64,000 nucleotides of DNA from Piedraia hortae CBS 480.64 (taxonomy: Eukaryota). The translations under genes and the position numbers were made by a program. The stretch spans positions 124,001 to 188,000 of the forward strand of contig MU005976.1 of NCBI GenBank assembly GCA_010093745.1. Direction: 5' to 3'. The notes below the pieces were generated by a model that was not told where the DNA came from, did not search any database, and saw nothing but the letters and a program-made list of their open reading frames with translations. Shown here one piece after another: positions 1 through 28,279 of this stretch; positions within the stretch are counted from its first letter, which is position 1; every line of letters begins with the position of its first letter.

Positions 1-94
1 CGTCTTCCCATCCACACGTGAAGACAGCTGCCCACGTTCCACTCCTTCCTAATTAGTGCATGGCATAGCTGTCAAATGTCCCCAAAACGATAGC

Positions 95-6000: not shown

Positions 6001-9000
6001 CAATGCCAAGATCGATCTTATTGGGAGGCAGCTGAATGTGCATCCCTTGACGGGAATGTTCATCACCATGAACCCCGGCTATGCTGGTCGATCGAACCTC
6101 CCCGACAACCTGAAGAAGCTGTTCCGCAGCGTAGCCATGTCGAGGCCTGACAAGGAGATCATAGTAGAAGTCATGTTGTTCTCCCAGGGTTTCTCAGAGG
6201 CGAAGGCACTTTCACGACAGACTGTTCCGTTTTTCGCCAAGTGCAGCACCACGCTGTCGAAGCAGCCGCACTATGACTTTGGCCTGCGAGCGTTGAAGAG
6301 CGTGCTGGTCAGCTCTGGTGGACTGAAGCGGTCGAGGTTGGCGAGCGGCACCGGACAAGGGAGTGATTTTGAGCCGCAGATTATTGTTCAGAGCATCAGG
6401 GAGACGATTGCGCCTAAACTAGTGCGGACTGATGCCAAGCTCATGGAGGATATCGAAGCTGAGTGTTTTCCCGGAGTACAGTATGTGCCCGCCTCACTGG
6501 AGAACTTGAGGGAAGCGCTGCGTGAGGTTATTGAGGAGCGCCAACTCTTTGCTACGGCTGCGTGGATGACCAAAGTGTTGCAGTTGTACCAGATCCAGTG
6601 TCTGCATCATGGTGTCATGATGGTTGGCAGCTCTGGAACGGGCAAATCAACGGCGTGGCAGGTGCTGCTTGCGGCGATGCAAAAAGTTGACGGTGTCGAA
6701 GGCGTTTGCCATGTTATCGATCCCAAAGTTATGTCCAAAGAGGCCTTATATGGCAACCTCGACAGCACGACGAGAGAGTGGACAGACGGCTTGTTCACCA
6801 GTATCCTGCGCAAGGTAGTTGATAACCTCCGTGGCGAAGATGGAAAGAGGCACTGGATTGTCTTTGACGGTGATGTTGATCCCGAGTGGGTTGAGAATCT
6901 AAACAGTGTGCTGGATGATAACAAGTTGCTTACTCTGCCCAATGGTGAGCGGCTCGGACTCCCTCCCAACGTGAGGATCATGTTCGAGGTTGAGACGCTT
7001 CGCTATGCCACGCTCGCAACCGTCAGCCGTTGTGGCATGGTTTGGTTTAGCGACGATACCGTCTCCCTTGACGTGATTCTCTCTCGCTATCTTGCTCAGC
7101 TACGCACAGCTACCTTTGAGGATCTTGAGGAAGATGTTGCCATGCAGGCTTCGCCAGAGGGCAGACTTGCCTCACTCACACTCATGGCGGAGATTCTAAA
7201 TGCTCGCTTGACAGGGAACGAGTTCTTGCAAAAGGCCCTCGATCGGTGCAGGGACATGAACCATATCATGGAGTTCACTACTATTAGAGCTGTTGGCACG
7301 CTGTTCTCGCTGTTGAGAAAAGCCTGTCGGTTGATGCTGGAGTACAGCTTGCATCATCCTGATTTCCCGCCCACAGAAGACCAGATTGATGCGTTTTTGT
7401 CCAAGAAGGTTCTTTTGGCGACTGTCTGGGCGTTTGTGGGTGATTGTCCCTTGTGCGAGAGGAAGGTGTTTGGTGATTTCGTTGCTAGACTGGTCACGTT
7501 GGATGTCCCACTGTTGACGGAGCAGACTTCCCTCATCGATTATGATGTCTCATTGCCGAACGCGGCCTGGGTTCCCTGGCAGACACAGGTCCCGTCCGTT
7601 GATGTCAACACCCACTCCATTACGCAGACGGACATGGTTATTCCCACCGTTGACACCGTTCGTCATGAAGAGGTGCTTTACTCTTTCCTTGCGGATCATA
7701 AGCCACTCTTGCTTTGTGGACCGCCTGGGTCAGGAAAGACGATGACGCTTTTCAGTGCGCTGAGGAAGCTGCCAAGTATGGAAGTTGTTGGTCTCAATTT
7801 TTCCAGCGCGAGCACTCCCGATCTATTGGTGAAGACACTAGAACAATACTGCGATTACCGGAAGACGCTGAGCGGAGTGACTATGGCTCCGCGGCAAATT
7901 GGTCGCTGGCTGGTTCTCTTCTGTGACGAGATCAATCTGCCTGCACCGGATAAGTACGGCACGCAGAGGGTGATTTCGTTTATGAGGCAGTTGATTGAGA
8001 ATGGCGGCTTCTGGCAGACTTCTACCAAGACCTGGGTCAGTCTTGAAAGGATTCAGTTTGTCGGCGCCTGCAACCCTCCAACCGACGCCGGACGCACACC
8101 TCTTGGTCTGCGTTTCCTTCGCCATGCTCCGCTCGTCATGGTCGATTATCCCGGAGAGCTCTCTCTGAACCAGATTTACGCCACGTTCAACAATGCCGTT
8201 CTTAAGCTAGTCCCGTCTCTGCGTGGTTATGCTGAGCCGTTGACAAAGGCGATGATTGAAGTCTACATGCTCTCGCAAAAGCGATTTACGCCTGATATTC
8301 AGCCGCACTATATGTATTCGCCTCGTGAGTTGACCAGGTGGGTGCGTGCTATATATGAAGCTGTCAGACCGTTGGAGACGCTCTCTCTTGAAGGGCTTGT
8401 ACGCATCTGGGCCCATGAAGCTCTGAGGCTGTTTTCTGATCGGTTGCTTACCGACGCTGAGAGGCAGTGGACAGAGGAAACCATTGACCGCGTCGCTCTT
8501 GAGCATTTCCCCAACATTGATGAGAAGGCAGCGTTGCAGAGGCCTATCCTATTTTCTAACTGGCTCTCCAAGAACTATGTCCCCGTTGACCGGGATCAGT
8601 TGAGGGACTTTGTCAAGGCTCGTCTGCGGACGTTTTGCGAAGAGGAGATTGACGTCCCGCTTATCCTTTTTAATGATGTGCTGGAGCATGTTTTGCGCAT
8701 TGACCGAGTGTTCCGCCAGCCGCAGGGTCATCTTATCCTCATTGGTGTCAGTGGCAGCGGCAAGACGACGCTTTCCCGCTTTGTAGCATGGATGAACGGT
8801 CTTTCTGTCTTCCAGATCAAAGTCCATGGGAAGTATTCGTCCGAGGACTTCGATGACGACCTCCGCAACGTCCTTCGACGGTGCGGCTGCAAGGGCGAAA
8901 AGATTTGCTTCATCATGGATGAATCTAACGTGCTCGACTCTGGGTTCTTGGAGAGGATGAATACCCTGCTTGCCAACGGTGAAGTCCCTGGACTGTTTGA

Positions 9001-12000
9001 AGGAGATGAGTATGCTGCCCTCATGACGGCGTGTAAGGAAGGTGCTCAGCGCCAGGGTCTTCTTCTCGACTCCCAAGAGGAGCTGTACAAGTGGTTCGCC
9101 CAGCAGATCGTGCGAAACCTGCACGTTGTCTTCACCATGAATCCTCCCACTGAAGGCTTATCCTCCAAGGCCGCCACCAGTCCGGCCCTGTTCAATCGTT
9201 GCGTTCTTAATTGGTTCGGAGATTGGTCTGATCAGGCGCTCTACCAGGTTGCCTTTGAACTTACGCAGTCTGTTGACATTGATCGCAGCAACTACGCCAA
9301 GCCTGATAGTCTCCCGCTGGAATATGATCAGCTTGAACCGCCGCTCTCGCATCGTGACGCTGTGGTCAACTCCATGGTCCATGTTCACCACTCCATGCGC
9401 AACTTCAATAAAAGGCTGCAGAGGCAACTGGGCAAGGTTACTTATCTTACTCCCCGGCAATTTTTGGACTTTGTGGCTCAGTTTGTGAAGTTGTTTAATG
9501 AGAAGAGGGATGACCTTGAAGAGCAGCAGAGACATTTGAACGTTGGTCTGGACAAGCTCCGCGAGACGGTTGACAAAGTCTCCGAGCTAAAGCGCAGTCT
9601 GGCGGAGAAAAAGTCTCAGTTGGAGAGAAAGGATGCCGAGGCCAGTGAGAAGCTTCAACGCATGGTTGCCGATCAGAGAGAAGCTGAGCAAAGAAGAGCC
9701 GCTTCGTTGGAGATTCAAGCTGCTTTGGAGAAGCAGGAAGCTGAGGTCGCAAAGAGGAAGGAAGTTGTGCTTGCAGACCTCGCCAAAGCCGAGCCGGCCG
9801 TGTTGGAGGCGCAACGGAGTGTTAGCAACATCAAGCGTCAACATCTGACCGAGGTCCGGTCCATGCAGAACCCGCCCGCTGGCGTAAAGCTCGCATTGGA
9901 GGCGGTCTGCACACTGCTTGGCCACAGGGCAAACGACTGGAAGACGATTGTCAGCATCGTCCGGCGGGATGACTTCATTGCAAGTATAGTGAACTACGAC
10001 AATGAAAGACAGATGACGCCGCAGCATCGCAACAAGATGAAGGTCGAGTTTTTGTCAAAAGACGAGTTTACCTTTGAGAGGGTCTACCGCGCGAGTAAAG
10101 CGTGTGGACCGCTAGTGCAGTGGGTTGAGGCGCAGGTTAATTATTCAGAGATCCTGGACCGCGTTGGGCCACTGCGTGTAGAGGTTGAGCAGTTGGAAGA
10201 AGAGGCTCTGCAGACCAAGGCGGAGGCGAAGATGATTGAGAATACATTGTCTGACTTGACGGCCAGTATTGCGAGGTATACGGAGGAATATTCGTCACTC
10301 ATTGGCCAGACGCAGGCGATCAAGAGAGAGATGACGGCTGTGCAGTCCAAAGTTGACCGGAGCATGCGTCTATTGAACAGTTTATCGTCTGAACGGGGAC
10401 GTTGGGAAGAGAGCAGCAAGACGTTTGAAGCGCAAATGGATACACTTGTTGGACAGGTATTCCTTGCTGCTGCGTTCTTGGCATACTGTGGGCTCTATGA
10501 TCAACAGTACCGTCGGGCCATGTTGGAGGATTGGTCGTTTCACCTCTCGCAGTCGGGCATTGCTCTTAGTCCGGAGAGTACTTTGACCGAGTTGCTCTCT
10601 AATGCGGATGATAGGCAGCAGTGGCACGATCACGGCTTGCCGGTCGATGAGCTCTGCACGGAGAATGCTATCATGCTGAAGCGGTATAACCGGTACCCGC
10701 TCATCATTGATCCTTCTGGCCGCGTTACCCAATTCTTGCTTAATGAGCACGTCGAGAGAAGGTTGACGGTGACAAGCTTCCTAGACAGCTCCTTTACGAA
10801 GCAGCTCGAGAGCGCCCTTCGGTTTGGCAATCCGATTCTTATTCAAGATGCAGAACATATGGATCCGATCCTGAACCATGTGCTGAATAAAGAATATCAG
10901 CGCACTGGGGGTCGTGTGCTCATTCAGCTGGGCAAGCAGGAGATTGATTTCTCGCCTGCGTTTAAGCTGTATCTGTCGACAAGAGACCCGTCGGTTCATT
11001 TCGCACCGGATGTCTGCAGTCGGACGACTTTTGTCAACTTTACAGTAACACAGAACAGCCTCAAGGCGCAGACGCTGAATGAGGTTCTAAAATCTGAAAG
11101 ACCGGATGTGGATGAACGACGGGCGAACCTGGTCAAGATGCAGGGTGAATTTACGCAGCGACTGAGAAGGCTAGAGCGGATGTTGCTTCAGGCTCTGAAT
11201 GAATCTCGCGGGAACATTCTCGACGATGAGAATGTCATCCAGACGCTGGAGACGTTGAAGAATGAAGCGGCGGACATTACAGCCAAAGCTGCTGAGACGG
11301 AAGGCGTCATGACCGAAGTCAATACCATTATGGCTACCTATGACACCATTGCGAGGTCGTGTTCGGCCATCTTTGCCGTCTTGGAGCAACTCTACCATGT
11401 CAATCATTTCTACCAATTCTCGCTACAGTACTTTGTGCGAGTTTTTGAGGGTGTCCTAGCAAGTGCTAGGCAGATAAATGAGAAGGAGCCACGCGCGCGG
11501 ATCGATTTCATGGTGCGTGAGCTGTTTAGGAAGACGTACGCAGAGACGGCTGTTTCACTTCTGCAGCGCGATCGCCTGGTCTTGGCTGTTTTATTGGCCC
11601 AGGCTTCGCCGTTTGCAATGGATAAAGGGTTGATCGATACTTTGCTTGATGATGCTTTGCCGGGAAATGATGTCAAATCTGTGCCCGATCAGAGGGAGTC
11701 GGCCATGGCGATGGTGGCTCGTATGTCTTCTCTGAAAGACGTGTTTGCCAATGCAAGTGAAGAAGATTTGGAGGGTTTCATAGCTGCAGAAGATGCGGAG
11801 AATCATGTTCCTTCTCTGGGGGATGTCAATGCGAATGATGCTGCGCTGAAGGGACTGCTTCTGATCAAGATGCTTCGCATCGACCGTTTGATTCCTTCGA
11901 CGGAGAAGTTCATCACGACTGTTTTCGGCTCTTCTTTCTTGGCCGTTTCAGACGATGCCCTCTCCCGCGCAGCGTCCCATTCCTCGCCAACATCACCTAT

Positions 12001-12952
12001 TGCCCTCTGCTCCACACCAGGTTTTGATGCATCATACAAAGTCGACTCTCTCGTCGCCCGCATGCAAAGTCCATGCACAAGTGTAGCCATGGGCTCAAAC
12101 GAAAGCATTTCCTCAGCCGACAGTGCCCTCTCCAGCGCCGCTGCCAATGGAACCTGGGTCCTAATCAAAAACGTCCATCTCTCCTCACCCGACTGGCTCC
12201 AAAACCTCATCAAACGCATCGAAGCATTGAAACCACACAGCGATTTCCGCGTTTTCCTATCAATGGAACTAAATGACCGCGTACCCTCTGGACTCCTCCG
12301 CGCAGCAAAAATTTTAGTCCACGAGCCCCCTGGCGGAGTAAGGGCTAATCTCAAGGACTCACTCGCCACTCTTTCTGAAACGCAAACCGGCACCCACCCT
12401 GTGGAGCTCACCCGTGTCCTCTTCCTTTTGGCCTATTTCCACGCCATCGTACAAGAACGTCTCCGCTACGCGCCTCGCTTAGGCTGGACACAACTCTGGG
12501 AGTTCAATGACTCGGATTTTGAGGCCTGTGTCTTTATCGTCACATACTGGGTTGACTATGTTGCCAAAGGGAGGGTCAATGTCGCGCCAAAGACGATTCC
12601 GTGGGAGTTGATCCGCATCCTGGTGGGGGAGATGTATGCCGGGAAAGTCGACCACCCTGCGGATTTATCTGAAGTTTTCGAGCTGGTAAACAAGGTTGTA
12701 AAAGTCGAGGCGTTTGAGGAGGGGTGGGATTTAATTAGTACTGTTGGGGGAGAAGGAGGGAAGCTTCCGCTCCCTGCTGGTACGGGTTTGGGGGCATTTA
12801 AAGAGTGGGTTGATTCTCTACCTGAGCGGGAACCGCCTACTTGGTTGGGGTTGAGGAGTGATGCGGAGAGATTGGTCCTTGTCCGCACGGCGGAGGGGAT
12901 GGTGAGGGATTTGGAGAGGGTTACTGGAGTGTTGGAGGAGGGGGAGAGTTAG
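95..12952 (+). CDS. DYN1: Cytoplasmic dynein heavy chain (NudA/Ro-1/Dyn1), single exon, ~4285 aa
   Basis: Uninterrupted ORF with four AAA P-loops ([32 protein letters not shown]), [10 protein letters not shown], and a coiled-coil stalk with microtubule-binding domain. The first in-frame ATG is at 95; the ORF track starts at GTG 56. Confidence 0.97.
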
Positions 12953-14952
12953 CTATTTTCTTGTGTTTTGCTTTGCTCTTGTGTGAATTTATTGTGTTCG
13001 TTGTGACAATAGGGGTTCTGGAAGGGTTTCTTTTTTGTTGTTATCTTTTGCGGGTTCATCAGCCCATTCCCCTACCACTCTCGAAGCAATTAAACCAGAT
13101 CTGATATACACTAGCTCTCCCACCTCCCATTTTTGGTACGGGAGTGTGCCTGTAGGATTAGACGCGCGGTTAGTTGTCTTGATGAAGGTGACATTTGGGC
13201 AACCTATGAGACATTGTGGTGCCTGCTTCTTGCCGATGGAACAGGTTCAACGTACTCTGGGTTGGCAAAATGATTTTCTGCAGGATGGATCTACTGTGTT
13301 GATTGGCTTTAACCACCCCCCAGAAAGGCAGCGCAGTTATTGGTTGAGGGCCCACGCATGACTCCACTGACACCTCAGTCGCCTGATACGAGGTAGCCCG
13401 CGATTCGCAGACTCCAAAGTACCTCTTCACTTTTCCATCTCGTCCACCTTATCACTCTTCTTCAGCGGCGTTTGAGTGTGTCAGATTTCTCCCGAAGGAA
13501 GAAAGTCACCCCAAGGACATTCCCCTAAGGTGTTGTGTGGTCGATGACGTCGCCCCTGGGATTGTGCCAGATGTGGGGGCGTCTTGGCGCACTTCTACCC
13601 CTCGGTGACGGAATCACACGCACTTCACTTTTTGCTAGAGGGAAGATAGGAGGAGTGGGGAGATAACTTCCTCCCTTTCGATATCACGTCGCAGGAGACG
13701 ATTGCAGTCCAGGTTGCGTCGAAATGTGAGGCAGTCTTGGCACAGGCCTTAGTCTTACGTCCTCCCTTCCGACATCGCGTCCCGGGGGTAGGCCACGATA
13801 GATGCGATCGGGTTCGGGGCGGAATGGGGGGGTGTTTTGGCACAAGTCCTGCTCTCACTTTTCCTTGCAAGGGATGTGGGATTAGCGTTGCGGCCCACTC
13901 TGTGTGACTGTTTTGTATACGATGCTACACTACAATCATCACTTCTGTGGAAAATTGGGTTTTTGAAGGGGAGGCGACATGAGGTGATTGCTCTAAGGGA
14001 TAAGATGAAGGATGGACAAGGCCGATATAGCTCAGAGTTCGATATAGTTGGGCTACTACGCGCTCTTTAACCCAAGGGGCCAAAACATGGAGCAGAAACG
14101 CTGGAGCAGCTCCACTACCGGATCTCTGACAAGAAACTAGCCGGCTTTTGCAAGTTTGATAGCACGACTTGCCAAGTAAGCTGAAGCGACCGATCAGCAG
14201 TCCTAGAAGTTCCAAGCGCTCACGCAGGTTTCTCCCTCTGGGTCCGGAGCAGGCAAGAGATGAGCGGAACGACAAAGCTAAGAAATTTGCTCAAAGCTTG
14301 ATACGGCTTGGACCATTACACACTAGGTTCCGGGCACAAGCTCGGGAGTCGTGATCCACATATCGGACCACTGCACTCCCCGGGACGTGGAACAATAGCT
14401 TCATTGCAGGGTTGGGAAGCCCCTGAGATGGCCCGACGAATAAACAGCACGACAGAAGCCTGAAGAATTCCATTGCGGCTCTGGCGGGTTCTTCACCACA
14501 TTCGGCCTCCATAAAAGTGGGATATCGAAGACTGAAAGGCTGGTTCCTGCGCTGTTGTGTGGGGATGCTTGAAAAGGTCATGCGTAACACGACTCGTACC
14601 ATGGAGCTGCAGTGGGGGAACAAGTGTGTTGCACGCTTGGAATGGGTGGGGCACGGTTATCGAGGTGTTTGAGGACAGGACACTACACACTTCTCACTCA
14701 CACAGTGCCATACGATGGTCGACTATGCATCACAAAGATGCGGAGACTGGGAGGTGAAATAGTGAAGTGCGGAGGAATTTGGGTTTTAAGATTTGAGATG
14801 TCGTGCTATGCAAATTCGGGGTTATGGCACCTTGTAACGCATAATCGACCATTCATACCGGTCATCGAAGTCTTCAACCAGCACATCTGGAAAGTCAAGT
14901 CATTGAAAATCATTCCCGGCCTACAAGAAAGACAGATTGATGAGACGAGGTG

Positions 14953-15322
14953 TGTTGGATTCAAGCATCGTCGCTAGCACGTATGCGGGGCACTTGCATA
15001 GCAAGTCAGCGATACCTCCTACACTACCAGCTGCGCCCTGGGTTTTTTCCTCACAGAGGTTTGCTCTCAGCGCCATGTCATATGTGACATGGCGAATGCG
15101 CCCTGCTAGGGTACGACGTGACGTCACCAGCCCACCGGTACAGAATTTTCATTCTGAACGTCTCCTCATTTGAGATAGATAGTCATTTCACACTGTCATA
15201 TCGACACTGGTAATGAATCATATCCATCTGCATCTGTCCTGTTCCTGTTGTCGATTGCCGCCTATCGCTTCGTCCTCTTCGGCCCGCTGCGCACTCTCGC
15301 CCACGGGAGTCCGATCGCTACA
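14953..15322. mobile_element. LTR copy A (solo-LTR-like, inverted relative to copies B and C)
   Basis: TGTTGG...CTACA, 370 bp. It is the reverse complement of 16352-16712 and 20070-20430, with some indels. Flanks do not form a TSD. Confidence 0.8.
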
Positions 15323-16160
15323 ATCTTTACCTCCATAAAGGAGGGTTTCCCTGAGACGGGTCATTGTCTCGTTCATGCTTAAGGGCATGGTTCGCTGACG
15401 CTGTCCTGGCGAAGACGGTTAGACTGAGGTAGTGTGGGGAAGGTTTCGCACCTCACCTCACATAGAGATAAATATTTACATTTACCTTTTGTTCAGAGTT
15501 GAGTGCACACATTTGTCTGTGATCTACGTTCCGCTTTAGTCCTCGGGGGTTCATCCCCTCCAACACTATGTGTTGCTCCACCGTCTAGCACCTAGTAGAC
15601 TTAGACATATTCGCCCGCAGCAAATATGCAGGCTGTGCTAGCAGGTGGAGTCTATAATCTTGGCGAGGTAACTTGAGTCGGGAGGTGACTGGACTCAAGT
15701 GCTTGGAAGGAACGAAAACAAGGAATAATCAGAGTGTCTGCCTCCCCGGCCAGCCAAGTTTTATCATCTGATCTTGTGTTACCGCATCCGTGGACTCCAT
15801 TCCAGTGGGTCACAATAGAGTCGACGGTTGGGGCAAGTCGATGAAATTCTTGAGGCGAAGAGAACGACTTACTTTGCCCGCTACATCGAACAGAGTCGGT
15901 ATCTCAATGAATTCACCGTCTGTGCCTCGGTGGCTACGCGTAGATAGCTCATCATTATGTCCTCAAGTGTGGATAAGAGTTGCGCGATTTGCTTAATCAC
16001 GCAACTGGTTAAGGTCAAAAACGAGACTATAACTCAAAAGTCGTTTTCTGTGTAGCTAAGGGATCTTAACAAACAGAACTGCAAGCCTTCATTGACTTGG
16101 TACAATACCCAACAATCTTACTACCAAAGACACAAAATCATATGACCCCCTTACAAGGCA

Positions 16161-16939
16161 TCAAACGGTACTACCACCGTTGTGTTGAAGAAGATTGCCG
16201 ATGGGGACCATGATGTCAGCGTTGTTGTGGGAACCCTGGTTCGGAGGACCCATTGCGCCGACCTGCTGGCTAGTCACATTGGTTTACTTTTGTTCGGGTG
16301 AAAAGACATGGGGACGCCGTTGCCCTGCTGTACGTTAGAAGCGAGATGAGCTGTAGCGATTTGGCTCCCGTGGGTGAGAGTGCGCAGCGACCCGAAGAGG
16401 ACGGAGCGATAGACGGAACCAGGGACAGGACAGATGTAGATGTGTATGAGTTCATATTAGTGTCGATATGACAGTGTGAATGACCTGCTATGTCTATGAG
16501 GGGACGTTCAGAATGAAAATTCTGTACCGGTGGGCCGGTGACGTCACGTCGTACCCTAGCAGGGCGCATTCGCCATGTCACATATGACATGACCCCGAGG
16601 GAAAATTTCTGTGGGAAAAAAACCTAGGGTGCAGCTGGTAGTGTAGGAGGTATCGCTGACTTGCTATGCAAGTGCCCTGCATACGCGCTAGCGGCGATGC
16701 TTGAATCCAACATGAGCCAGGGACGAGACCATGACATTCGGCGCGTGGATCATCGTCTGGCCAGTTCCAAACGGGCCGTTAACAGACGGCCCTGCATGAT
16801 CTGGATAATCGTATCCCATGGAGCCATGAGGGGGAATGGTAGTCGTGTTCAAGACGTTCTGCTGATGGGCCATGTTCTGGGCAGTGTTGTGACCAACAGC
16901 CTGCGCAGCTCCGTGGGGGTTTTGATAGATAAACGCCAT
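16161..16939 (-). pseudogene. Q/N/H/G-rich low-complexity ORF interrupted by solo LTR B
   Basis: MAFIYQNPHGAAQAVGHN...VSSLAH runs into the LTR. Removing the LTR plus one TSD restores ...SLAHLASNVQQGNGVPMSFHPN, and a shifted frame then continues NVTSQQVGAMGPPNQGSH...GGSTV*. Confidence 0.45.
16352..16712. mobile_element. Solo LTR copy B with 5-bp target-site duplication TGAGC
   Basis: TGTAG...CAACA termini (TG..CA), 361 bp, flanked by TGAGC at 16347-16351 and 16713-16717. Confidence 0.9.
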
Positions 16940-18410
16940 GTTGCCTGAAGAGTTGACAAAGGCCTGATATGTTACGGTGAGGCTGTGAGTGCGCGCGGGA
17001 CGACCCGCGCCACCTAATCGCACAGTGAATTTGATACACCGACGCGTTCTGCTGGTTATTCATAGCTACGCTCGATACCGCGCGCGTATGGATGGCGCTT
17101 CTTGATTGGTTTATAGTATCATAGCTCTCCAGTAGATAGCAGTTTAAATTGTCCTCGTTATTGGGACTTATTGAACCTTTTCCCCTGAGCACCGTAACAT
17201 GATTGCCACCAGACGCCGCGTGATGCATCGCTCCATTGTTGTTAAGATGTACAGAAGCAAGTTAGCGAGAAAGGATATTACCGCCGATATTGCATTGAAA
17301 AGGTCCCCAAGGCCAACATAAAACCAAGGCTTCCACGGTTTGCGCGCACCGTGGCAATTGAAAACGACAAGCATGACTCGACAGCCTCGTCGCCAAGTTT
17401 CCCACGAATCTCAATGGTCTACACTGAACCTACGTCTTCGATAGACTAACAGAGTAACCTGCGGCATCCACCGGACGCGTGCAGGGCCGACATCTCTTGC
17501 CACCTGTCGACTCCAAAACGGTAGTGACCCGTCCCATCCAGTTTCGCGCTGCTTGGGAGATGCCTATCTTCGGCATTTGCGCCCACAATTCGAATGCCGT
17601 ATACACTCCTCAGGGGTTTAGTGCTCGCCATCAGTGAGTAGCGACTTCTTTGTTTAAGCTTTGGCCTCAAGTATTCAAAGTTGATTAGAGACGAAGCGGC
17701 ATCTGTCGCGGGGGCCAGCAGGTGATTTTGACAATCCTGTGCGATGGTAAACATTGGCAGACGGGTAGTAGCGTCCCCATGCACACGGCGATTTGATTTT
17801 GCTGTTGTTCAGGTGAGTAATTCGTTTTCCTTTGTTTTAGGGAGGCTGGGCCATTGGGGGTTTAAGTTGTGGTATGTATGTTTTTGTTACATAACTGCTG
17901 ATTGCTATGCGGATGCAACTTTCTTGGAGCACTGGTTAAAAGGAACTGGTGTTGTGTATGGCGATAGATGGATAGGTGGATTATGGACAGCACGAATTTC
18001 GTATCTCGATTGTAGCACGTTCCCGCACTCTAGTGATGTGTCCTTTCGGCTATCAGCTCTTTTCCACTACCTGATTGTCGTCATGTCTACTTCATGCTGA
18101 ACACCATCGTATAGTAACAGCCTCCTGATGTAGGTCTCTCAGCAGTAGAAGCGATACACTTACCCCAAAAGTGATTAACTTGATATTTATTTATTTGGCC
18201 AGCGTCAGGCCCTGCATCGGAGAGAGACGCCGGCATAGCCCTGTCTGGTGGTGGCCGTTACCCATAGTTCTCTACCCGTTCTGCCAACAGCTGATGATCT
18301 ATCGCTTTTGTTCCTGTGCGCATAAATGGCCAAACCCAAAAACTTTTGCCCTTATTACACCGCAACAGAAAATATCAGAGTACGTGTTGTGCAGGTCGCC
18401 GCGGAGCGAT

Positions 18411-18527
18411 CCGCAGGTGATGACCCACATCCCTGACCAGGGTTTGAGAACTCGGAAACCTTCTTGTGTAGCTCTAGATACGCATATATACGGACACGCT
18501 TGTGAGATGCCACTGCTTATTAGAACA
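18411..18527 (+). repeat. ~117-bp dispersed direct repeat, copy 1
   Basis: ccgcaggtgatgacccac...tgtagctctagatacgc...atacggacac...ctgcttattagaaca matches 20435-20552. Confidence 0.75.
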
Positions 18528-18727
18528 GTACGAGACTTTTCGACAAGAGAGCTTCCCATATGTAAGTCAACACAGCATCGATGATAAGAAAGCTCTATGG
18601 ACATAATGGTTCGTGAACTGCATAAACAACTATGCTCTGCTAGCATGAGAGACTTAGCTCACCCAATCCCATCATACCCCGAAAGCGCTTTGTACCGACA
18701 AACAGACACCCCCCCTGACCACCACTA

Positions 18728-19483
18728 TTAGTGCTGCGGGATATTTGTGCCATCCTTGAGGCGAAATGAGCGAGCAACCCCGGTGATATGGTTGTAAGCC
18801 TCCATGATATCATCCTCGGAGCTGGCACCACTGAACAGCACACTTCCGGTAGCATACACGATCACTGAGAGCTTAGCGAGTCGGTACGTCAAGCCGCTAC
18901 ACAGCTCCGGCTCAAAGAAGCACGAAGAAACATGCTCCTCCAGAGAGGCCTTCAGTGCGGTAAGATGAACACGATAACCAAGATGGGCATTCGCAACCAT
19001 GTTGGTGATCTTGAAGTCCAAGAAATACGGCTTGAATCCGATCTTTTGCATCATGCGCGCAATCTTACGCGCAGCAAGACGACAGTTCGCGCGGGACGTT
19101 GCTCCTGCAACAACCAGCATGCCATTGGTAAAGACTGACGTGCAGGATTTCGGCTCACGGAGGCGGATCCTCGCCGCAGTGAAACGTTTCGGGTTGTATT
19201 CCACATTGATGGCCTTCTCGCCCACTGTCTGGAGTTTAATGATGATGTCGAGGTCCACGGTGCCGACCACATTACTAGTAAGGATGTCGTTAGTATTGGA
19301 AGCAATACTTGGGGCCCATTGTGAGGGGAATAATTACTGCAACACGGGAGGCACAGGCTCACCCGGAACACGCGAAACGCTGGCTTCAGCAGCGAGCTTA
19401 AACAGGTACTTTTTGCCGACTGCCTTGGCGACGTCTTCGTGAGATCCGCACAAGGCGGCAGTTAGATCAGCGCGGTTGGACAT
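18728..19483 (-). CDS. Divergent TATA-binding protein paralog (TBP-related factor), 2 exons: 19483-19338 and 19274-18728, 230 aa
   Basis: Two TBP core repeats (NVVGTVDL...EYNPKRF...REPK...VFTNGMLVVAGA; FLDFKITNMV...FEPELCSGLTYR...VYATGSVLFSGA). The 63-nt intron 19337-19275 has a GTAATT donor, TACTAAC branch and TAG acceptor, and splicing gives an open frame from ATG 19483 (..PPVLH^NVVG). Confidence 0.9.
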
Positions 19484-19518
19484 GTTGAGTTGAAGTGCTT
19501 TCGGAACAGGCTGTGGTA

Positions 19519-19556
19519 GAAGAGGCAGAAGAAGCAGAGGGAGCGGGACTATATAA
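19519..19556 (-). promoter_or_regulatory. Putative core promoter of the TBP paralog (TATATA followed by a CT-rich tract)
   Basis: TATATA at 19550-19555, about 70 bp upstream of the ATG, followed on the minus strand by a pyrimidine-rich tract. Confidence 0.4.
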
Positions 19557-20069
19557 TGCGGTTACCGTGGGAGCGTCATATTGCGTCGTATCCATGGGAA
19601 TGACTCCTAAACGTGTTAAATGGGGTTTGCTCTCACGCGTTGCTATTGTTTGGCGACATGTACAGTGTGCGCGTCCTATCGTGTGAATGCCACTCATCTG
19701 TGGATTATTCATAGATGTGTGGAAATCTAGCTAGGTTACAGAGGCCTGGCATGTGGATACACTCGGCCTGGTCCACACAAGGACTGGCGTTTGAATGCAA
19801 TTTGACCCGTACGTACCTAAGTGCACTTTCCGCGCAGGGTATGATACTACGTTATCTTCCAATGTTTTACCCCCCACATAATGCCTGAATGCCCCCAAAA
19901 ATTCTTCGAAAGTGAATATACTCCTTATCACTCGCCAAAATTGTTGGCAAGGCCTACGATCACCCCTACAAAAGTTCGACAGAGACAAGCAAGATCAGTC
20001 GTGACCAAAGTGATGAAATTTGCGAGTCAATTCTCGAAACCCATGGGTACCGTGTGTGGATACCAGAGA

Positions 20070-20430
20070 TGTAGAGATCTGGCTCTCGTGGGTGAGAGTG
20101 CGCAGCGACCCGAAGAGGACGGAGCGATAGACAGAACCAGGGACAGGACAGATGTAGATGTGTATGAGTTCATATTAGTGTCGATATGACAGTGTGAATG
20201 ACCTGCTATGTCTATGAGGGGACGTTCAGAATGAAAATTCTGTACCGGTGGGCCGGTGACGTCACGTCGTACCCTAGCAGGGTGCATTCGCCATGTCACA
20301 TATGACATGGCGCTGAGGGCAAACCTCTGTGAGGAAAAAACCTAGGGCGCAGCTGGTAGTGTAGGAGGTATCGCCGACTTGCTATGCAAGTGCCCCGCAT
20401 ACGTGCTGGCGGCGATGTTTGAATCCAACA
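20070..20430. mobile_element. LTR copy C (same orientation as B), no TSD
   Basis: TGTAG...CAACA, 361 bp, near-identical to copy B. Flanks AGAGA and CTAAC differ. Confidence 0.85.
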
Positions 20431-20434
20431 CTAA

Positions 20435-20552
20435 CCGCACGTGATTGACCCACACCCCTAACCAGGGTTCGGGCACTTAAGAATTTTCTCTTGTAGCTCT
20501 AGATACGCGTGTATACGGACACACCTGAGGGGTGCCGCTGCTTATCAGAACA
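20435..20552 (+). repeat. ~117-bp dispersed direct repeat, copy 2
   Basis: Similar to 18411-18527. It begins 4 bp after LTR C. Confidence 0.75.
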
Positions 20553-20834
20553 AAGTATACAAAACACGCCGGTCTTGAGCTACATTTCTGCTGGATGGCC
20601 AGCATCAGACTGTAGACATCCGCGAGAAGCAGACAATGGTGGCCGGGTCATTTTTCCAAGGGTCACGGTGACCCCTGTCAAAAAATAATGTATACAGTTT
20701 TCTTTTGGTCCTTGCGGAAGCACGAAATACTTGGCCATGAGAATGGTGCATCGCCGTGCCGCAAGATGATGACGTATGAACGAAGCCCCGCACCAAGTTC
20801 CAATGCTTAGCAGATGATCTTCTCAGCCACAAAC

Positions 20835-21818
20835 ATGTCATTCACTGTTGCTGGTAAGCCCGTGGGCCCTATTGGGTTTGGCATGATGAGCCTCAGCAAG
20901 AACTTAAACATTGAAGAATCGTTTGCTACGCTCAAAGCAGCTCTCAATGCTGGTGCTAATCTGTGGAATGCGGGAGAGTTCTACGGAACTGCTGATAATA
21001 ACAGTCTTCACCTCCTAAACAGGTATTTTACTAAGTATCCCGAGGATACCAACAAGGTTGTTATCAGCGTCAAGGGATGCTTCAATATAGAAGGCGCCCA
21101 GGCCTTGAACGACGAAACTGGAGTAAAGGGCAGTATTGAGAACTGTCTCAGGATTTTGAATGGAAAGTGCAAAATCGCCATTTTCGAGGCTGCTCGAGGA
21201 GACCCTGATGTGCCAATCGAAACCACGGTGGGTGCCATTGCGAGATACGTCAAGGCAGGCAAGATCGGCAGCATTGGCCTAAGCGAATGCAGCGCTGCAA
21301 CGATACGCAAGGCCACCGCCGTACACCCCATCGCAGCTGTTGAAGTGGAGCTGAGCCTCTTGGAGGCAAAAGTACTCACCAATGGCGTTGCGGATGCTTG
21401 CCGGGAGCTGAAGATCCCGATTGTTGCGTATAGCCCGCTGGGTAATGGTTTCCTCTCCGGTGAGCTGAAGGAGTTCAACGATATACCCCCCGACGATCAT
21501 CGTCGATACTTTCCGCGTTTCCAGAGTCATAATTTTGACAGCAATATCAGAGTGGCTCACCAAGTGGAGATGGTGGCTAATGCCAAGGGATGTTCCATGG
21601 CCCAAGTGGCCATTGCTTGGGTGTTAGCACAAGCAAAGTTGATTGGTACGCCTGTTATCCCGATTCCGGGAACAGCCATTGCATCGGTTGTAGAGGAGAA
21701 CATGAAGCCGGCTGAGCTCACGGATGAGGATGTGTCTGGATTGTCGGATGCCGTGGCCAATATTGAGGTTAAAGGCGATCGTGCACCAGGGGCCTACAAA
21801 AAGTATTTGGTTGTCTAA
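20835..21818 (+). CDS. Aldo-keto reductase, pyridoxal reductase-like (AKR8)
   Basis: VGPIGFGMM, WNAGEFYG, VISVKG, FEAARGDP, GKIGSIGLSE, AAVEVELSL, AYSPLG, PIPG motifs. Intronless. Confidence 0.9.
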   Translation: MSFTVAGKPVGPIGFGMMSLSKNLNIEESFATLKAALNAGANLWNAGEFYGTADNNSLHLLNRYFTKYPEDTNKVVISVKGCFNIEGAQALNDETGVKGSIENCLRILNGKCKIAIFEAARGDPDVPIETTVGAIARYVKAGKIGSIGLSECSAATIRKATAVHPIAAVEVELSLLEAKVLTNGVADACRELKIPIVAYSPLGNGFLSGELKEFNDIPPDDHRRYFPRFQSHNFDSNIRVAHQVEMVANAKGCSMAQVAIAWVLAQAKLIGTPVIPIPGTAIASVVEENMKPAELTDEDVSGLSDAVANIEVKGDRAPGAYKKYLVV

Positions 21819-23137
21819 TGTACATGTGCCCATTAACAATGTTTGGGCCCAGTGTAGTTTGAAGTGCACCACGAACTTTGCTTTCGACCACTCAGCACCA
21901 TTTATCTTACTGTATGCCTGAGGATTATCCACGGGAACCGCATGTCATGATGCCTCAAGCGGCAGAACTGACGTCGGGATGCTAAGAAGCACAGGCCATA
22001 TCGCGGCCGGAGATGACGGTCGAGGCTTCCAGAGGTTTTTGCCTCAAAATGGGAAGTTTTTCTCTTGGCCCGGGTCACGGTTGCGTTCATTTTACAGCGC
22101 GTGTTCCACGACGTGGTCCCAGTGAGCCTAGATAGCGTGGGTAAACTTCTGAGCCTCACTCTTCTAAGCAGCCGCCGGGACCCGACGTCATGCAACAGTG
22201 GGGCTCTGTCCCTAAATCTTTCTCGCTGAAGGGCGCGTCGGCTTTCAGTAGCTGGAAGAGCCGCATATTGCGATCGAATGCTGACGTAGAGTGAGTAATA
22301 AAGTGCTGAACGGAATGAAAGTTTTGAATTCACCAATGTCGACTGGCTGAAAATGGGGTCATGGGCATGACATGATATCTTGCGTCATTCTGTAGCTGTC
22401 ACACGCGGGAACTCACCTCGCTCAGCTCGACGGTTTACAGACGAATGCAACGAGGCAATACCCCACTTGAGATGTGACTGCGGCTTGGGGCGATAGCACC
22501 GACACCGTAACCATGACTGGACGGGGTTTTGACAGTGAGGAAGCCTTGGATAGACGATTTTATGCCCTGCTTACAAGTTATAGGGCGGGTATGGCCTTCC
22601 CTTGTTGTGATTGAGAGGAGTGTGGGCTCAAGCGATTTGCGAATACGCAAACTTCTAGAAAGAAACAATCTGGCAGTTTATTGGTTGAAGAAGGGTTAGG
22701 AGACGTTGGATGTAACATGCTTAATGCACAAAGTGAACTGGACTATGAGGGTGGAGCTTCGACTCGACCAGTTGGAAGGAGTGAGTTAATCAGGGTGGAC
22801 AGCCAGCGTCACTATTCCAATGAACTCGAAGGGCACGACAAGTCCTTTAGAGATTATAACGGGCTTGACACTTCCCAGCATGTCGATATGAGGCGGCCTA
22901 GCTCTCGGGTCAAGCAAAGAAAATCGACCGAAGCTGAAGTTGTCAAGGAATCAACATTCCAACCCAAGTCCAAATGAAAGAAGTTAAGTCGGCGATGAGG
23001 CTGAGAGGATAAACGCGCGAGCAGGTACGCTACGATGAGCCTAACAAGAAGCTGTCAACGAATTTTATGGACCAAACCACAAAACATTCGAAAGCAGAAG
23101 TTGGTGTTAAGTCCCACGGTCAGCTTCGATCTAGCAA

Positions 23138-26922: not shown

Positions 26923-28279
26923 ATGGTACGGCAAGTCGATGCCGACGTACCGCAGCCGGGGCCGGCGCAGTTGGGTTCACGCGCGGGGCCGGACGAGTGG
27001 CTTGCGGAAGCACGCCAATGCCATTACCTACCCGAAAACGACATGAAGCGGCTGTGTGAACTGGTCAAGGAGTGTTTGATGGAAGAGAGTAATGTACAGC
27101 CGGTTCGCGCGCCCGTCACAGTGTGCGGCGACATTCATGGGCAGTTTTACGACCTGCTGGAACTGTTCGACGTCGCAGGCGGAATGCCGGGCGATGCTGA
27201 GGCCCGCGCCGCCGCCCGGAAGGAGCGCATAGCCACTCCGACGAGTCCGACGCGTGCGGGCGTTATCAATGCTGCCGATATCGAGCCCCCGACGCAGATC
27301 AGTGATCCAAAAGTGCGGCGAAAGATGAAGCGGAGATTCCAGCGCGACGCAGCGTATCTGTCACCACCGGCGGGAGAGCAGGCACCGTCAGGGGCGATAG
27401 ATGGGGACGAGGATACGCGCGGCAGGCAGATGAGTCGCGGGGGGGATGCGGAGACAGGATCAGACGAAGAGTCGGAGTCGGAAGGGGGCAGCGGGCAGTC
27501 GAGTCGGGCCATGGTGGATGGCAAGCAAAACTTTGTGTTTCTCGGCGATTTCGTCGACCGCGGCCATTTCAGCCTCGAGACGTTCACGCTACTCATGTGT
27601 CTCAAGGCCAAATTCCCGGACAAGGTCACGTTGGTGCGCGGCAACCATGAGAGCCGGCAGATTACACAGGTCTACGGTTTCTACGAGGAGTGTCAACAAA
27701 AATACGGCAACGCTAGCGTGTGGAAGAGCTGCTGCCAGGTGTTTGACTACATTGCGCTGGCAGCCATCATTGACGGCAAGGTGTTGTGTGTGCACGGCGG
27801 TCTTTCGCCCGAAATCCGCACATTAGACCAGATTCGCGTAGTAGCTCGAGCTCAGGAAATCCCACATGAGGGCGCCTTCTGCGACCTTGTTTGGTCGGAT
27901 CCCGAGGAGGTGGAGACGTGGGCCGTGTCTCCGCGGGGCGCTGGGTGGCTATTTGGTGACAGAGTCTCATCAGAGGTAGGTCTCCGAACTAAGTGCATTG
28001 TATCTGGCTGACTCAGTACAGTTCAACCATGTAAACGACCTGCAACTCATCGCCCGCGCCCATCAGCTAGTCAACGAAGGCTACAAGTACCACTTCCGTT
28101 CCCAGGACGTGGTTACGGTGTGGTCCGCACCAAACTATTGTTATCGATGCGGCAACGTCGCCAGCATCATGACCATTGGCGAAGATCTGCAGCCTGGGTT
28201 CAAGATCTTCTCAGCGGTGCCAGACCATAGAAGAGCAGTTCCTGCCGGGCGAACTGGTAGGGGCGAGTACTTTTTGTAA
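26923..28279 (+). CDS. SIT4: Ser/Thr phosphatase SIT4/PP6 catalytic subunit; exons 26923-27975 and 28022-28279
   Basis: [35 protein letters not shown] motifs and C-terminal YFL. 46-nt intron GTAGGT..GCTGAC..CAG. Confidence 0.93.

What the first reader, a model, noticed from the sequence alone, without database searches (positions are those of the whole stretch)
18728..19483. Intact, spliced, highly divergent TBP paralog with a rewired DNA-binding surface: a possible fungal TBP-related factor
Seen: a stop-free 230-aa two-exon gene with canonical splice signals and an upstream TATATA, intact amid decayed neighbours. Established: fungal TBP cores are extremely conserved, and four Phe (yeast F99/F116/F190/F207) intercalate into the TATA box. 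By-eye alignment to remembered Spt15: F99 and F116 are kept, but ELFPG becomes ELCSG (F190C, P191S) and LIFVSG becomes IVYATG (F207Y). Positions 194/203/205, which are mutated in the altered-specificity TBPm3 allele, appear as T/S/I. A100, I103, T112 and L114 become T/R/C/S, and about 2 residues are deleted after YR. The EPE stirrup that binds TFIIB and both core Asn are kept. Inference: a second, TRF2/TLF-like basal factor that recruits the machinery at non-TATA promoters, or acts as a TBP antagonist.
Basis: partly seen in the sequence, partly recalled or inferred. Interest (0 to 1): 0.85.

Follow-up and report, generated by a model that had tools for sequence, protein, structure and literature searches.

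The report
Divergent extra TBP gene in Piedraia
The hair fungus Piedraia hortae carries an intact, spliced copy of the normally almost unchangeable TATA-binding protein gene that keeps the protein's shape and one half of its working surface but has rebuilt the other half, so it may be a second, specialised transcription starter of a kind not described in fungi, though its expression and function are untested.

Summary
Window 19483-18728 (minus strand) is a two-exon, 230-aa gene. Its spliced product is letter for letter the NCBI protein 'TATA-box binding protein-like protein [Piedraia hortae CBS 480.64]'. It has two TBP repeats (Pfam E 1.2e-36) and folds as a TBP saddle (core pLDDT 95-98; TM 0.93-0.95 to solved TBPs). 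It is only 38-42% identical to 36 canonical TBPs, whose median pairwise identity is 85%.

New here:
- A second copy, 83% identical, lies on the same contig, and DNA contigs point to a third.
- No relative above 43% identity exists among 1.84 billion representative proteins.
- The intron has the same position and phase as in 30 of 80 canonical fungal TBP loci, so the gene arose by DNA-level duplication of a fungal TBP gene.
- The N-lobe and both stirrups are conserved; the C-lobe is rewired.

Not shown: a separate canonical TBP in this genome, expression, or dN/dS. The most likely reading is a selected, lineage-specific TBP-related factor. The TRF2-like mechanism remains an inference.

The parts
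18728..19483 (-). Whole coding region of the TBP-like gene (230 aa plus stop, two exons)
   Evidence: The product is identical to NCBI protein P0003.
19338..19483 (-). Exon 1: Met1-Leu48 plus the first two bases (CA) of codon 49. Its end (VPGEPVPPVL-H) aligns with the canonical '..PGSGIVPTL-Q' just before the TBP core.
   Evidence: No Pfam family. Modelled as helices of low confidence, pLDDT 50-66.
19275..19337 (-). Intron, 63 nt, GT..AG, phase 2, with tactaac at 19295-19289. Same position and phase as the intron of canonical fungal TBP genes.
   Evidence: 30 of 80 environmental canonical TBP loci have a 50-113-nt phase-2 intron in the homologous Gln codon.
18728..19274 (-). Exon 2: the last base of codon 49, the whole TBP core and the stop codon
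19004..19273 (-). N-terminal TBP repeat (aa 50-139). The better conserved half: F99, F116, N69, V71, R98, V122, the NxEYNPKRF stirrup and the basic helix H2 are kept.
   Evidence: 46 of 90 positions equal the canonical consensus, and 25 of 31 invariant positions are kept.
18755..19003 (-). C-terminal TBP repeat (aa 140-222). The rewired half: F190C, P191S, I194T, L205I, F207Y, K211S, V213L, T215S, K218S, a 3-aa insertion and a 2-aa deletion. The EPEL stirrup is kept.
   Evidence: 24 of 82 positions equal the consensus, and 11 of 24 invariant positions are kept.
19550..19555 (-). TATATA, 67-72 nt upstream of the ATG (possible core promoter element; untested)
20066..20552 (+). High-copy repeat units on the 5' side of the gene: a ~365-nt unit at 20066-20430 and a ~120-nt unit at 20435-20552
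   Evidence: (summed depth in the thousands against 12.7 for single-copy DNA).
18411..18527 (+). Copy of the ~120-nt repeat unit on the 3' side of the gene (80% identical to 20435-20552, direct orientation)

Best explanation
This is a real protein-coding member of a small TBP-derived gene family private to the Piedraia lineage. It arose by DNA-level duplication of a fungal TBP gene, keeping that gene's exon-intron layout, and then changed very fast while still under selection for an intact TBP saddle.

The protein keeps several canonical features (sequence and model shown; partner binding inferred):
- the N-lobe DNA contacts, including the Phe pair F99/F116;
- the N-terminal stirrup and basic helix H2, which TFIIA, NC2, Mot1 and TAF1 use on canonical TBP;
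- the C-terminal stirrup E186/E188/L189, which TFIIB and Brf use.

Other features are lost or altered:
- the C-lobe Phe pair is changed (F190C, F207Y);
- most other C-lobe DNA-facing residues are changed;
- three DNA-side lysines are lost (K120M, K211S, K218S);
- most of helix H2' has been replaced.

Most likely mechanism (inferred): it docks the general factors like TBP but reads DNA asymmetrically. It therefore cannot make the canonical 5' TATA kink. It would act either as an alternative core-promoter factor at a subset of non-TATA Pol II promoters (an analogue of TRF2) or as a competitor that titrates TBP partners.

The confidence given is for 'selected, functional lineage-specific TBP-derived factor'. 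Within that, I would put roughly 35% on alternative promoter recognition and 20% on antagonist or decoy.
For: Gene and family:
- The ORF is intact, with canonical splice signals, and equals the deposited gene model.
- It has two TBP repeats.
- The AF2 model has mean pLDDT 88.1 and a core of 95-98. Foldseek puts TBP chains on top, with target-normalised TM 0.93-0.95 and rmsd 1.0-1.4 A over about 180 columns.

Divergence with the ORF preserved:
- Core identity to 36 canonical TBPs is 38-42%. Their median pairwise identity is 85%.
- Apart from a few doubled or fused plant and fish proteins at the top, the rows listed, mostly named Pezizomycotina, are 94-96% identical to the Aulographum core.
- The tree gives a stem of 2.75 changes per site to the Piedraia pair, which has 100% support. 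The branches after the duplication are 0.032 (this copy) and 0.18.
- 5.5% of non-synonymous single-base changes make a stop. At least 103 unselected replacements would therefore leave the frame open with probability about 0.003.

Constraint is patterned, not uniform:
- 25 of 31 canonical-invariant positions are kept in the N-lobe against 11 of 24 in the C-lobe (p 0.01).
- Identity to the consensus is 46 of 90 against 24 of 82 (p 0.005).
- The two copies are identical at 85 of 90 N-lobe positions against 62 of 80 C-lobe positions (p 0.0015).
- One search lists the kept and changed functional residues.

Origin:
- The intron position and phase are identical to 30 of 80 canonical fungal TBP loci.
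- A clade of the pair with the 10 named Pezizomycotina TBPs is not rejected (p-AU 0.766). The constrained tree is 16.5 lnL better than the short free search.
- Codon use is like that of neighbouring genes, with GC3 0.64.

Family and restriction:
- A second annotated copy, P0004, is 83% identical and sits on a contig of the same length, 287,431 bp.
- Extra single-copy-depth DNA contigs align at 82-84% to the N-lobe, intron and exon 1. Summed depth there is 36-41 against 12.7.
- Nothing else exceeds 43% identity among 1.84 billion representatives.
Against: - No separate canonical TBP of P. hortae was shown, so 'extra factor' rests on prior expectation.
- No splice-junction or clear RNA evidence was obtained.
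- No dN/dS could be computed. The higher N-lobe identity between the copies could come from gene conversion rather than constraint.
- The second copy is annotated as partial and has the longer branch, so the family may be decaying now.
- Universally invariant residues are lost: T112, L114, K120, T124, E129, F190, P191, I194, L205, F207 and V213. This could mean loss of DNA binding altogether.
- The gene sits in about 7.8 kb of anonymous, repeat-bearing DNA.
- Partner binding is inferred from residue identity only. The lists of contact residues are recalled, not taken from a call.
Confidence: 0.55

Rival explanations
1. Functionless duplicates on their way to decay. The family was once under selection, or drifted while still foldable, but this copy has no role now and merely has not yet been hit by a stop or frameshift.
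For: - Lineage-restricted, with no orthologues.
- The sister copy is annotated partial, has a 2-residue extra insertion and a branch 5-6 times longer.
- Many invariant DNA-contact residues are lost.
- The setting is repeat-bearing and gene-poor.
- No RNA holder was listed for the stretch.
Against: - The frame stayed open over a stem of 2.75 changes per site. An open frame after at least 103 unselected replacements has probability about 0.003.
- The splice signals are intact.
- Conservation is patterned: fold-determining and N-lobe invariant residues are kept.
- This copy's branch after the duplication is very short, 0.032.
- The model is confident.
Confidence: 0.22
2. It is the organism's own, only TBP (with recent duplicates), extremely diverged in a reduced genome. 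It would be the orthologue rather than a paralog.
For: - No canonical P. hortae TBP turned up among the rows I could see. That is a listing limit, not a test.
- P. hortae has the smallest genome (16.95 Mb) and fewest genes (7,572) of 101 Dothideomycetes (PMC7082219, passages read).
- The gene has the exon-intron layout of the canonical gene.
Against: - Apart from a few doubled or fused plant and fish proteins at the top, the rows listed, mostly named Pezizomycotina, keep 94-96% core identity to the query. A sole TBP at about 40%, lacking F190, P191, L114 and T124, would need co-change of the Pol I, II and III partners.
- The copies differ from each other at 18 of 80 C-lobe positions. That is unexpected for an essential factor.
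- None of 80 canonical TBP loci has the window's neighbours (aldo-keto reductase, dynein) within 1.5 kb. This is weak evidence because the flanks are short.
Confidence: 0.04
3. A TBP-like gene acquired from outside (giant virus or another eukaryote), or carried and copied by a mobile element, rather than a duplicate of the resident gene.
For: - It is equidistant (38-43%) from fungal, plant and oomycete TBPs.
- The free tree puts the pair outside all canonical TBPs.
- The nearest language-model clusters include TBP clusters whose few labelled members are mostly viral (leads only).
- It is multi-copy and bracketed by high-copy repeats.
Against: - It has the same intron position and phase as canonical fungal TBP genes, and homologous exon-1 ends.
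- A Pezizomycotina origin is not rejected and scores better than the free tree.
- Codon use looks native.
- No transposase or other mobile-element domain was found in the flanking ORFs.
- No closer donor exists among 1.84 billion representatives.
Confidence: 0.08

Closest known systems
Canonical eukaryotic TBP (yeast Spt15; Pfam PF00352; e.g. PDB 1ytb, 1cdw, 7o4i)
   Same: - Two TBP repeats and the saddle fold.
- N69 and N159, F99 and F116, R98, R196, V71, V161 and V122 are kept.
- The NxEYNPKRF stirrup, the basic residues of helix H2 and the E186-P-E188-L189 stirrup are kept.
- The intron position is the same as in fungal TBP genes.
   Different: - Only 38-42% core identity, against a median of 85% among canonical TBPs.
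- C-lobe changes: F190C, P191S, I194T, L205I, F207Y, K211S, V213L, T215S, K218S.
- N-lobe changes: T112C, L114S, K120M, T124A.
- A 3-aa insertion and a 2-aa deletion in the C-lobe.
- Helix H2' is largely replaced.
- Multi-copy and restricted to one lineage.
Metazoan TBP-related factor 2 (TRF2 / TLF / TBPL1)
   Same: - A divergent TBP-fold paralog, about 40% identical to the TBP core. The 40-85% range for paralog cores is stated in bioRxiv 10.1101/2025.10.03.680374 (passages read).
- TATA-contacting aromatic residues are altered. A TBPL1 N-lobe Phe to Trp change is described in PMC7221094 (passages read).
- The N-terminal extension is short.
- The Atlas lists a TBPL1 cluster among structural and feature neighbours (a lead only).
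   Different: - It is not an orthologue. TRF2 is described as a bilaterian acquisition, whereas this gene shares its intron with fungal TBP genes and is compatible with a Pezizomycotina origin.
- The changed residues sit mainly in the C-lobe here.
- No named TBPL1 sequence was in my tree, so the relationship was not tested directly.
Other lineage-specific TBP paralogs: insect TRF1, vertebrate TRF3/TBPL2, and the multiple TBPs of archaea
   Same: The principle is the same: duplication of the universal factor followed by specialisation.
   Different: - TRF3 stays close to TBP.
- The papers I searched and read in passages describe no fungal TBP paralog.
- This family is far more diverged than its host's relatives' TBPs.

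Membership tests
TBP superfamily (PF00352, two-repeat saddle) | Two tandem TBP repeats detected by the family profile | tested here: met
   E 1.2e-36, 124.8 bits against a cut-off of 22.9, in 2 stretches.
TBP superfamily (PF00352, two-repeat saddle) | Pseudo-symmetric alpha/beta saddle fold | tested here: met
   core pLDDT 95-98. TM 0.93-0.95 and rmsd 1.0-1.4 A to solved TBPs. This is a prediction, not a solved structure.
Canonical (orthologous) TBP / Spt15 | Four DNA-kinking phenylalanines (yeast F99, F116, F190, F207; the list is recalled) | tested here: not met
   F99 and F116 are kept, F190 is Cys and F207 is Tyr.
Canonical (orthologous) TBP / Spt15 | Near-invariant core sequence (about 80% or more identity across eukaryotes, 94-96% within Pezizomycotina) | tested here: not met
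   38-42% identity to 36 canonical cores; apart from a few doubled or fused plant and fish proteins at the top, the listed rows, mostly named Pezizomycotina, are 94-96% identical to the query core.
Canonical (orthologous) TBP / Spt15 | TFIIB/Brf-binding C-terminal stirrup (E186, E188, L189) and TFIIA-side N-terminal stirrup | tested here: met
   the residues are identical at sequence level. Binding itself was not tested.
Canonical (orthologous) TBP / Spt15 | Being the single essential TBP of the genome | not testable with these tools
   No genome is held. each list only 120 of thousands of hits, and no Piedraia row is among them.
TRF2 / TLF / TBPL1 | Orthology with metazoan TBPL1 (common origin, bilaterian distribution) | tested here: inconclusive
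   No named TBPL1 was in the tree. The intron shared with fungal TBP genes and the AU test favour an independent fungal origin. The literature describes TRF2 as bilaterian.
TRF2 / TLF / TBPL1 | No TATA binding, but TFIIA and TFIIB binding retained (recalled property) | not testable with these tools
   Only the residue pattern is available. This needs EMSA and pull-downs.

The most novel reading that the evidence does not exclude
Fungi, thought to run on one invariant TBP, have in the Piedraia lineage independently evolved their own small family of TBP-related factors. These proteins keep the TFIIA/TFIIB docking half of TBP, while the C-lobe DNA-reading face has been rebuilt and still differs between copies. 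Five of the 12 recalled C-lobe DNA-facing positions differ between the two copies. That would make this a convergent, fungal counterpart of TRF2 that directs a distinct promoter class. One speculative target is the promoters of the high-copy repeat that brackets the gene.
Probability: 0.3. Interest if true: 0.75.

Novelty: new variant of a known kind. Interest (0 to 1): 0.55.

Why it matters
TBP is among the most conserved eukaryotic proteins. Specialised TBP paralogs (TRF1, TRF2, TRF3) are treated as an animal innovation. The papers I could search contrast animals with yeast and describe no fungal TBP-related factor.

A selected fungal paralog at about 40% identity, with one DNA-binding lobe rebuilt, would be a natural experiment in three things:
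- which TBP surfaces can change while the fold and the general-factor docking sites stay;
- how core-promoter recognition can be re-specified;
- whether a second basal factor can arise in a very small genome (16.95 Mb, 7,572 genes; PMC7082219).

It is easy to test: express the 181-aa core, then run SELEX or a protein-binding microarray, pull-downs and yeast spt15 complementation. If it proves to be a decaying duplicate, it still shows how far a TBP saddle can drift and remain foldable.

Tried and rejected

3. Finding the P. hortae canonical TBP through protein searches:
- queried the Aulographum TBP core. It gave 4750 hits at E<=1e-60, of which 120 were listed, none from Piedraia.
- queried P0075, chosen because it shares His68, Ala124 and CRLAARK with the paralog. 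It proved to be an unnamed environmental protein whose relatives are early-diverging fungi.
- Both are limits of the listing, not evidence of absence. All 3 searches are now used.

4. Sequencing runs:
- No RNA holder was listed.
- X2 is only guessed to be RNA. It has an exact 217-nt contig over 18611-18826 (end of the CDS plus 117 nt beyond the stop, depth 5.8). It has a little cover in bin 19161-19311, and an exact 1140-nt piece over the neighbouring reductase (depth 31).
- X2 has no cover over exon 1 or most of exon 2. No joint 19338/19274 appears among the joints shown (4 further joints were not shown).
- I draw no conclusion on expression from this.

5. dN/dS between copies: not possible.
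- One search gives only the number of differing letters for two paralogous contig pieces: 53 in 292 nt over 19045-19336 and 29 in 186 nt over 19347-19532.
- Their positions were cut from the table, and I cannot tell which piece belongs to P0004.

6. Earlier findings of this scan: nothing on this genome. The only TBP notes concern archaea and a giant virus.

7. Synteny:
- No aldo-keto reductase or dynein lies next to canonical TBP in 80 environmental loci. The flanks are only 1.5 kb.
- One locus (L053) has a phosphatase resembling window 26992-27678. Its orientation differs, so I judged it a coincidence.

8. Flanking 'decayed genes': 0 of 19 ORFs hit Pfam.

9. The repeat: no Rfam family and no tRNA.

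10. Whether C-lobe DNA-facing positions vary more between the copies than other C-lobe positions: 5 of 12 against 13 of 68, p 0.13. Not significant, and the contact list is recalled.

Full report
**Observation**

On the minus strand, an ATG at 19483 opens exon 1 (19483-19338). A 63-nt intron follows (19337-19275; GTAATT...TACTAG; tactaac at 19295-19289). Exon 2 (19274-18728) runs to a TAA stop. TATATA lies at 19555-19550.

The exon translations join through the split codon CA|T. They give exactly the 230-aa protein returned at 100% identity by the protein search. NCBI names it 'TATA-box binding protein-like protein [Piedraia hortae CBS 480.64]'.

The product carries two Pfam TBP repeats (E 1.2e-36). 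It matches solved TBP cores at E about 1e-37. An AlphaFold2 model built on a 67-sequence alignment has mean pLDDT 88.1, with 95-98 over the core. Foldseek finds TBP chains on top, with target-normalised TM 0.93-0.95 and rmsd 1.0-1.4 A.

**How divergent it is**

- Over the 172-residue core it is 38-42% identical to 36 named canonical TBPs from fungi, plants, oomycetes, a cryptophyte and flatworms. Their median pairwise identity is 85%.
- A search with the Aulographum TBP core listed 120 proteins. Apart from a few doubled or fused plant and fish proteins at the top, they are 94-96% identical to it, and most named ones are Pezizomycotina from several classes.
- In a maximum-likelihood tree of 79 rows, the window protein and its sister copy form a 100%-supported pair on a stem of 2.75 changes per site. 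The branches after the duplication are 0.032 (window copy) and 0.18. Branches within the Pezizomycotina TBP clade are at most about 0.03.
- The pair falls outside all canonical TBPs, but this placement is unresolved because the branch is long.

**Residues**

Yeast numbering is anchored on Torulaspora P0397. The offset and the functional meaning of each residue are recalled, not taken from a call.

| Region | Kept | Changed |
|---|---|---|
| N-lobe | N69, V71, R98, F99, R105, F116, V122; the NxEYNPKRF stirrup; R137, K138, R141, K145 of helix H2 | A100T, V102A, I103R, T112C, L114S, K120M, T124A, E129R |
| C-lobe | N159, V161, R196; E186-P187-E188-L189 | F190C, P191S, I194T, V203S, L205I, F207Y, K211S, V213L, T215S, K218S; much of helix H2' |

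There is also a 3-residue insertion after position 178 and a 2-residue deletion around 198-201.

The divergence is lopsided:
- Identity to the canonical consensus is 46 of 90 in the N-lobe against 24 of 82 in the C-lobe (p 0.005).
- Canonical-invariant positions kept are 25 of 31 against 11 of 24 (p 0.01).

**A family, and private to this lineage**

- A second NCBI protein of the same strain, P0004 (183 aa, annotated partial, starting at the first core residue), is 83% identical. It sits on a contig of the same length, 287,431 bp. It is not in the window.
- The two copies are identical at 85 of 90 N-lobe positions but only 62 of 80 C-lobe positions (p 0.0015).
- I laid the contigs of a DNA run of the same organism on 17500-22000 at 80% or more likeness. 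Summed depth is 36-41 over 19010-19462, against 12.7 for single-copy DNA.
- Two paralogous pieces are visible: 19045-19336 with 53 differences in 292 nt, and 19347-19532 with 29 in 186 nt. This points to two further copies of the 5' half, one presumably P0004's.
- An exhaustive HMMER search of 1.84 billion representative proteins found 3915 TBP-domain proteins. Nothing besides P0004 exceeds 43% identity.

**Origin**

I fetched 80 environmental loci encoding canonical fungal-type TBPs, using a Dothideomycete TBP as the query, and looked for an intron just before the core.
- 30 loci have a 50-113-nt GT..AG intron of phase 2 splitting the Gln codon just before Asn-Ile-Val-Ala-Thr.
- 47 have no intron there. 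Most of these are 1-2-kb contigs, probably transcripts.
- 1 is unclear, and 2 lack the search motif.

The Piedraia gene's intron (63 nt, phase 2, in His49, which aligns with that Gln) is at the identical place. The end of exon 1 (PGEPVPPVL-H) aligns with the canonical PGSGIVPTL-Q.

Further points on origin:
- An AU test does not reject a clade of the pair with the 10 named Pezizomycotina TBPs (p 0.766). The constrained tree is 16.5 log-likelihood units better than the short free search.
- Codon use resembles that of neighbouring genes.
- No mobile-element domain was found in the flanking ORFs.

I conclude that the family arose by DNA-level duplication of a fungal TBP gene. It did not arise by retroposition or by viral or foreign transfer. 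How widely this intron position occurs outside fungi was not tested.

**Is it alive?**

- Neutral decay is unlikely to explain the sequence. 23 of 415 non-synonymous single-base changes (5.5%) create stops. At least 103 unselected replacements would therefore leave the frame open with probability about 0.003. The splice signals, the glycines and prolines of the fold and most N-lobe invariants have also survived.
- The window copy has changed very little since the duplication.
- This supports long-term selection for a folded protein. It does not prove present function.
- I could not obtain dN/dS. The N-lobe similarity between copies could reflect gene conversion.
- No RNA holder was listed for the stretch. 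A run only guessed to be RNA has an exact 217-nt contig over the 3' end of the gene. No junction-spanning contig appears among those shown. I treat this as no evidence either way.

**The open point**

- No genome is held.
- The two further protein searches can list only 120 of thousands of near-identical TBPs, and no Piedraia row appeared.

On prior grounds I give 'sole TBP' about 4%. The grounds are the 94-96% conservation in all relatives, the loss of residues invariant in all 36 canonical sequences, and the copies differing from each other.

**Mechanism (inferred)**

- The surfaces that canonical TBP uses for TFIIA, NC2, Mot1 and TAF1 (N-stirrup, helix H2) and for TFIIB and Brf (C-stirrup) are kept. 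So is the N-lobe Phe pair, which kinks the 3' end of the TATA box.
- The C-lobe pair that kinks the 5' end is Cys/Tyr. Most other C-lobe DNA-facing residues and three DNA-side lysines are changed. Helix H2' is replaced.
- The protein should therefore still dock general factors, but it should not make the canonical symmetric TATA complex.
- It would act as an alternative core-promoter factor at non-TATA promoters, or as a competitor for TBP's partners. This resembles TRF2 in logic but not in descent.

**Context**

- The gene lies in about 7.8 kb of anonymous DNA between the dynein heavy-chain gene (53-12952) and an aldo-keto reductase (20811-21818). The surrounding region is otherwise a housekeeping region.
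- The gene is bracketed by units of a repeat present at very high copy number in the genome.

**Literature**

- The searches 'TBP paralog'+fungi, 'TBP-related factor'+fungi+TRF2, and TATA-binding protein+gene duplication+filamentous fungi+paralog returned 5, 6 and 1 papers.
- I read passages of PMC7221094, bioRxiv 10.1101/2025.10.03.680374, PMC3597702 and PMC4419840. They describe TRF1 (insects), TRF2 (bilaterians) and TRF3 (vertebrates), and contrast animals with yeast. None describes a divergent fungal TBP paralog.
- The genome paper PMC7082219 (passages on Piedraia read) does not mention TBP in those passages. I did not open the supplements of these papers, and they may list TBP copy numbers per species.

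**Verdict**

This is a real, already annotated but undescribed, lineage-specific TBP-derived gene family. I rate it a new variant of a known kind. Interest is moderate to high, and depends on expression and on the presence of a canonical TBP.

Noticed in passing
window 14952-15326 (-), 16348-16712 (+), 20066-20430 (+); also 18411-18527 and 20435-20552: A ~365-nt repeat (88-95% identity between copies) and an adjoining ~120-nt unit. In the DNA run their summed contig depth reaches about 7400 against 12.7 for single-copy DNA, suggesting hundreds of copies in a 17-Mb genome. The repeat folds unusually stably as a single strand (z -5). It has no Rfam or tRNA hit. Its 3' part (about 20343-20425) looks like tRNA A and B boxes by recalled consensus, so it may be a SINE- or MITE-like element.
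   Followed up: partly
window 12953-18700 and 19560-20800: About 7.8 kb without any recognisable gene (0 of 19 ORFs with a Pfam hit), in a genome that averages about 2.2 kb per gene. The TBP-like gene is the only identifiable gene in this island.
   Followed up: partly
L053:2374-2727 and window 26992-27678: One environmental contig with a canonical-type TBP has a Ser/Thr phosphatase about 1.1 kb downstream that resembles the window's phosphatase gene (49-65% over short stretches). This is 1 of 80 loci, and the orientation differs. It is probably a coincidence between members of a conserved family.
   Followed up: partly
P0075 (unnamed environmental protein, 297 aa): An otherwise canonical fungal-type TBP that shares His at the Gln68 position, Ala at Thr124 and CRLAARK in helix H2 with the Piedraia paralog. 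Its nearest named relatives are early-diverging fungi, so these shared states are probably convergent.
   Followed up: partly
P0068, P0217, P0218, P0219 (plant proteins) and P0220 (a catfish protein): These database proteins carry more than one strong TBP-core match. They look like doubled or fused TBP gene models, and they outrank true orthologues in summed score.
   Followed up: no
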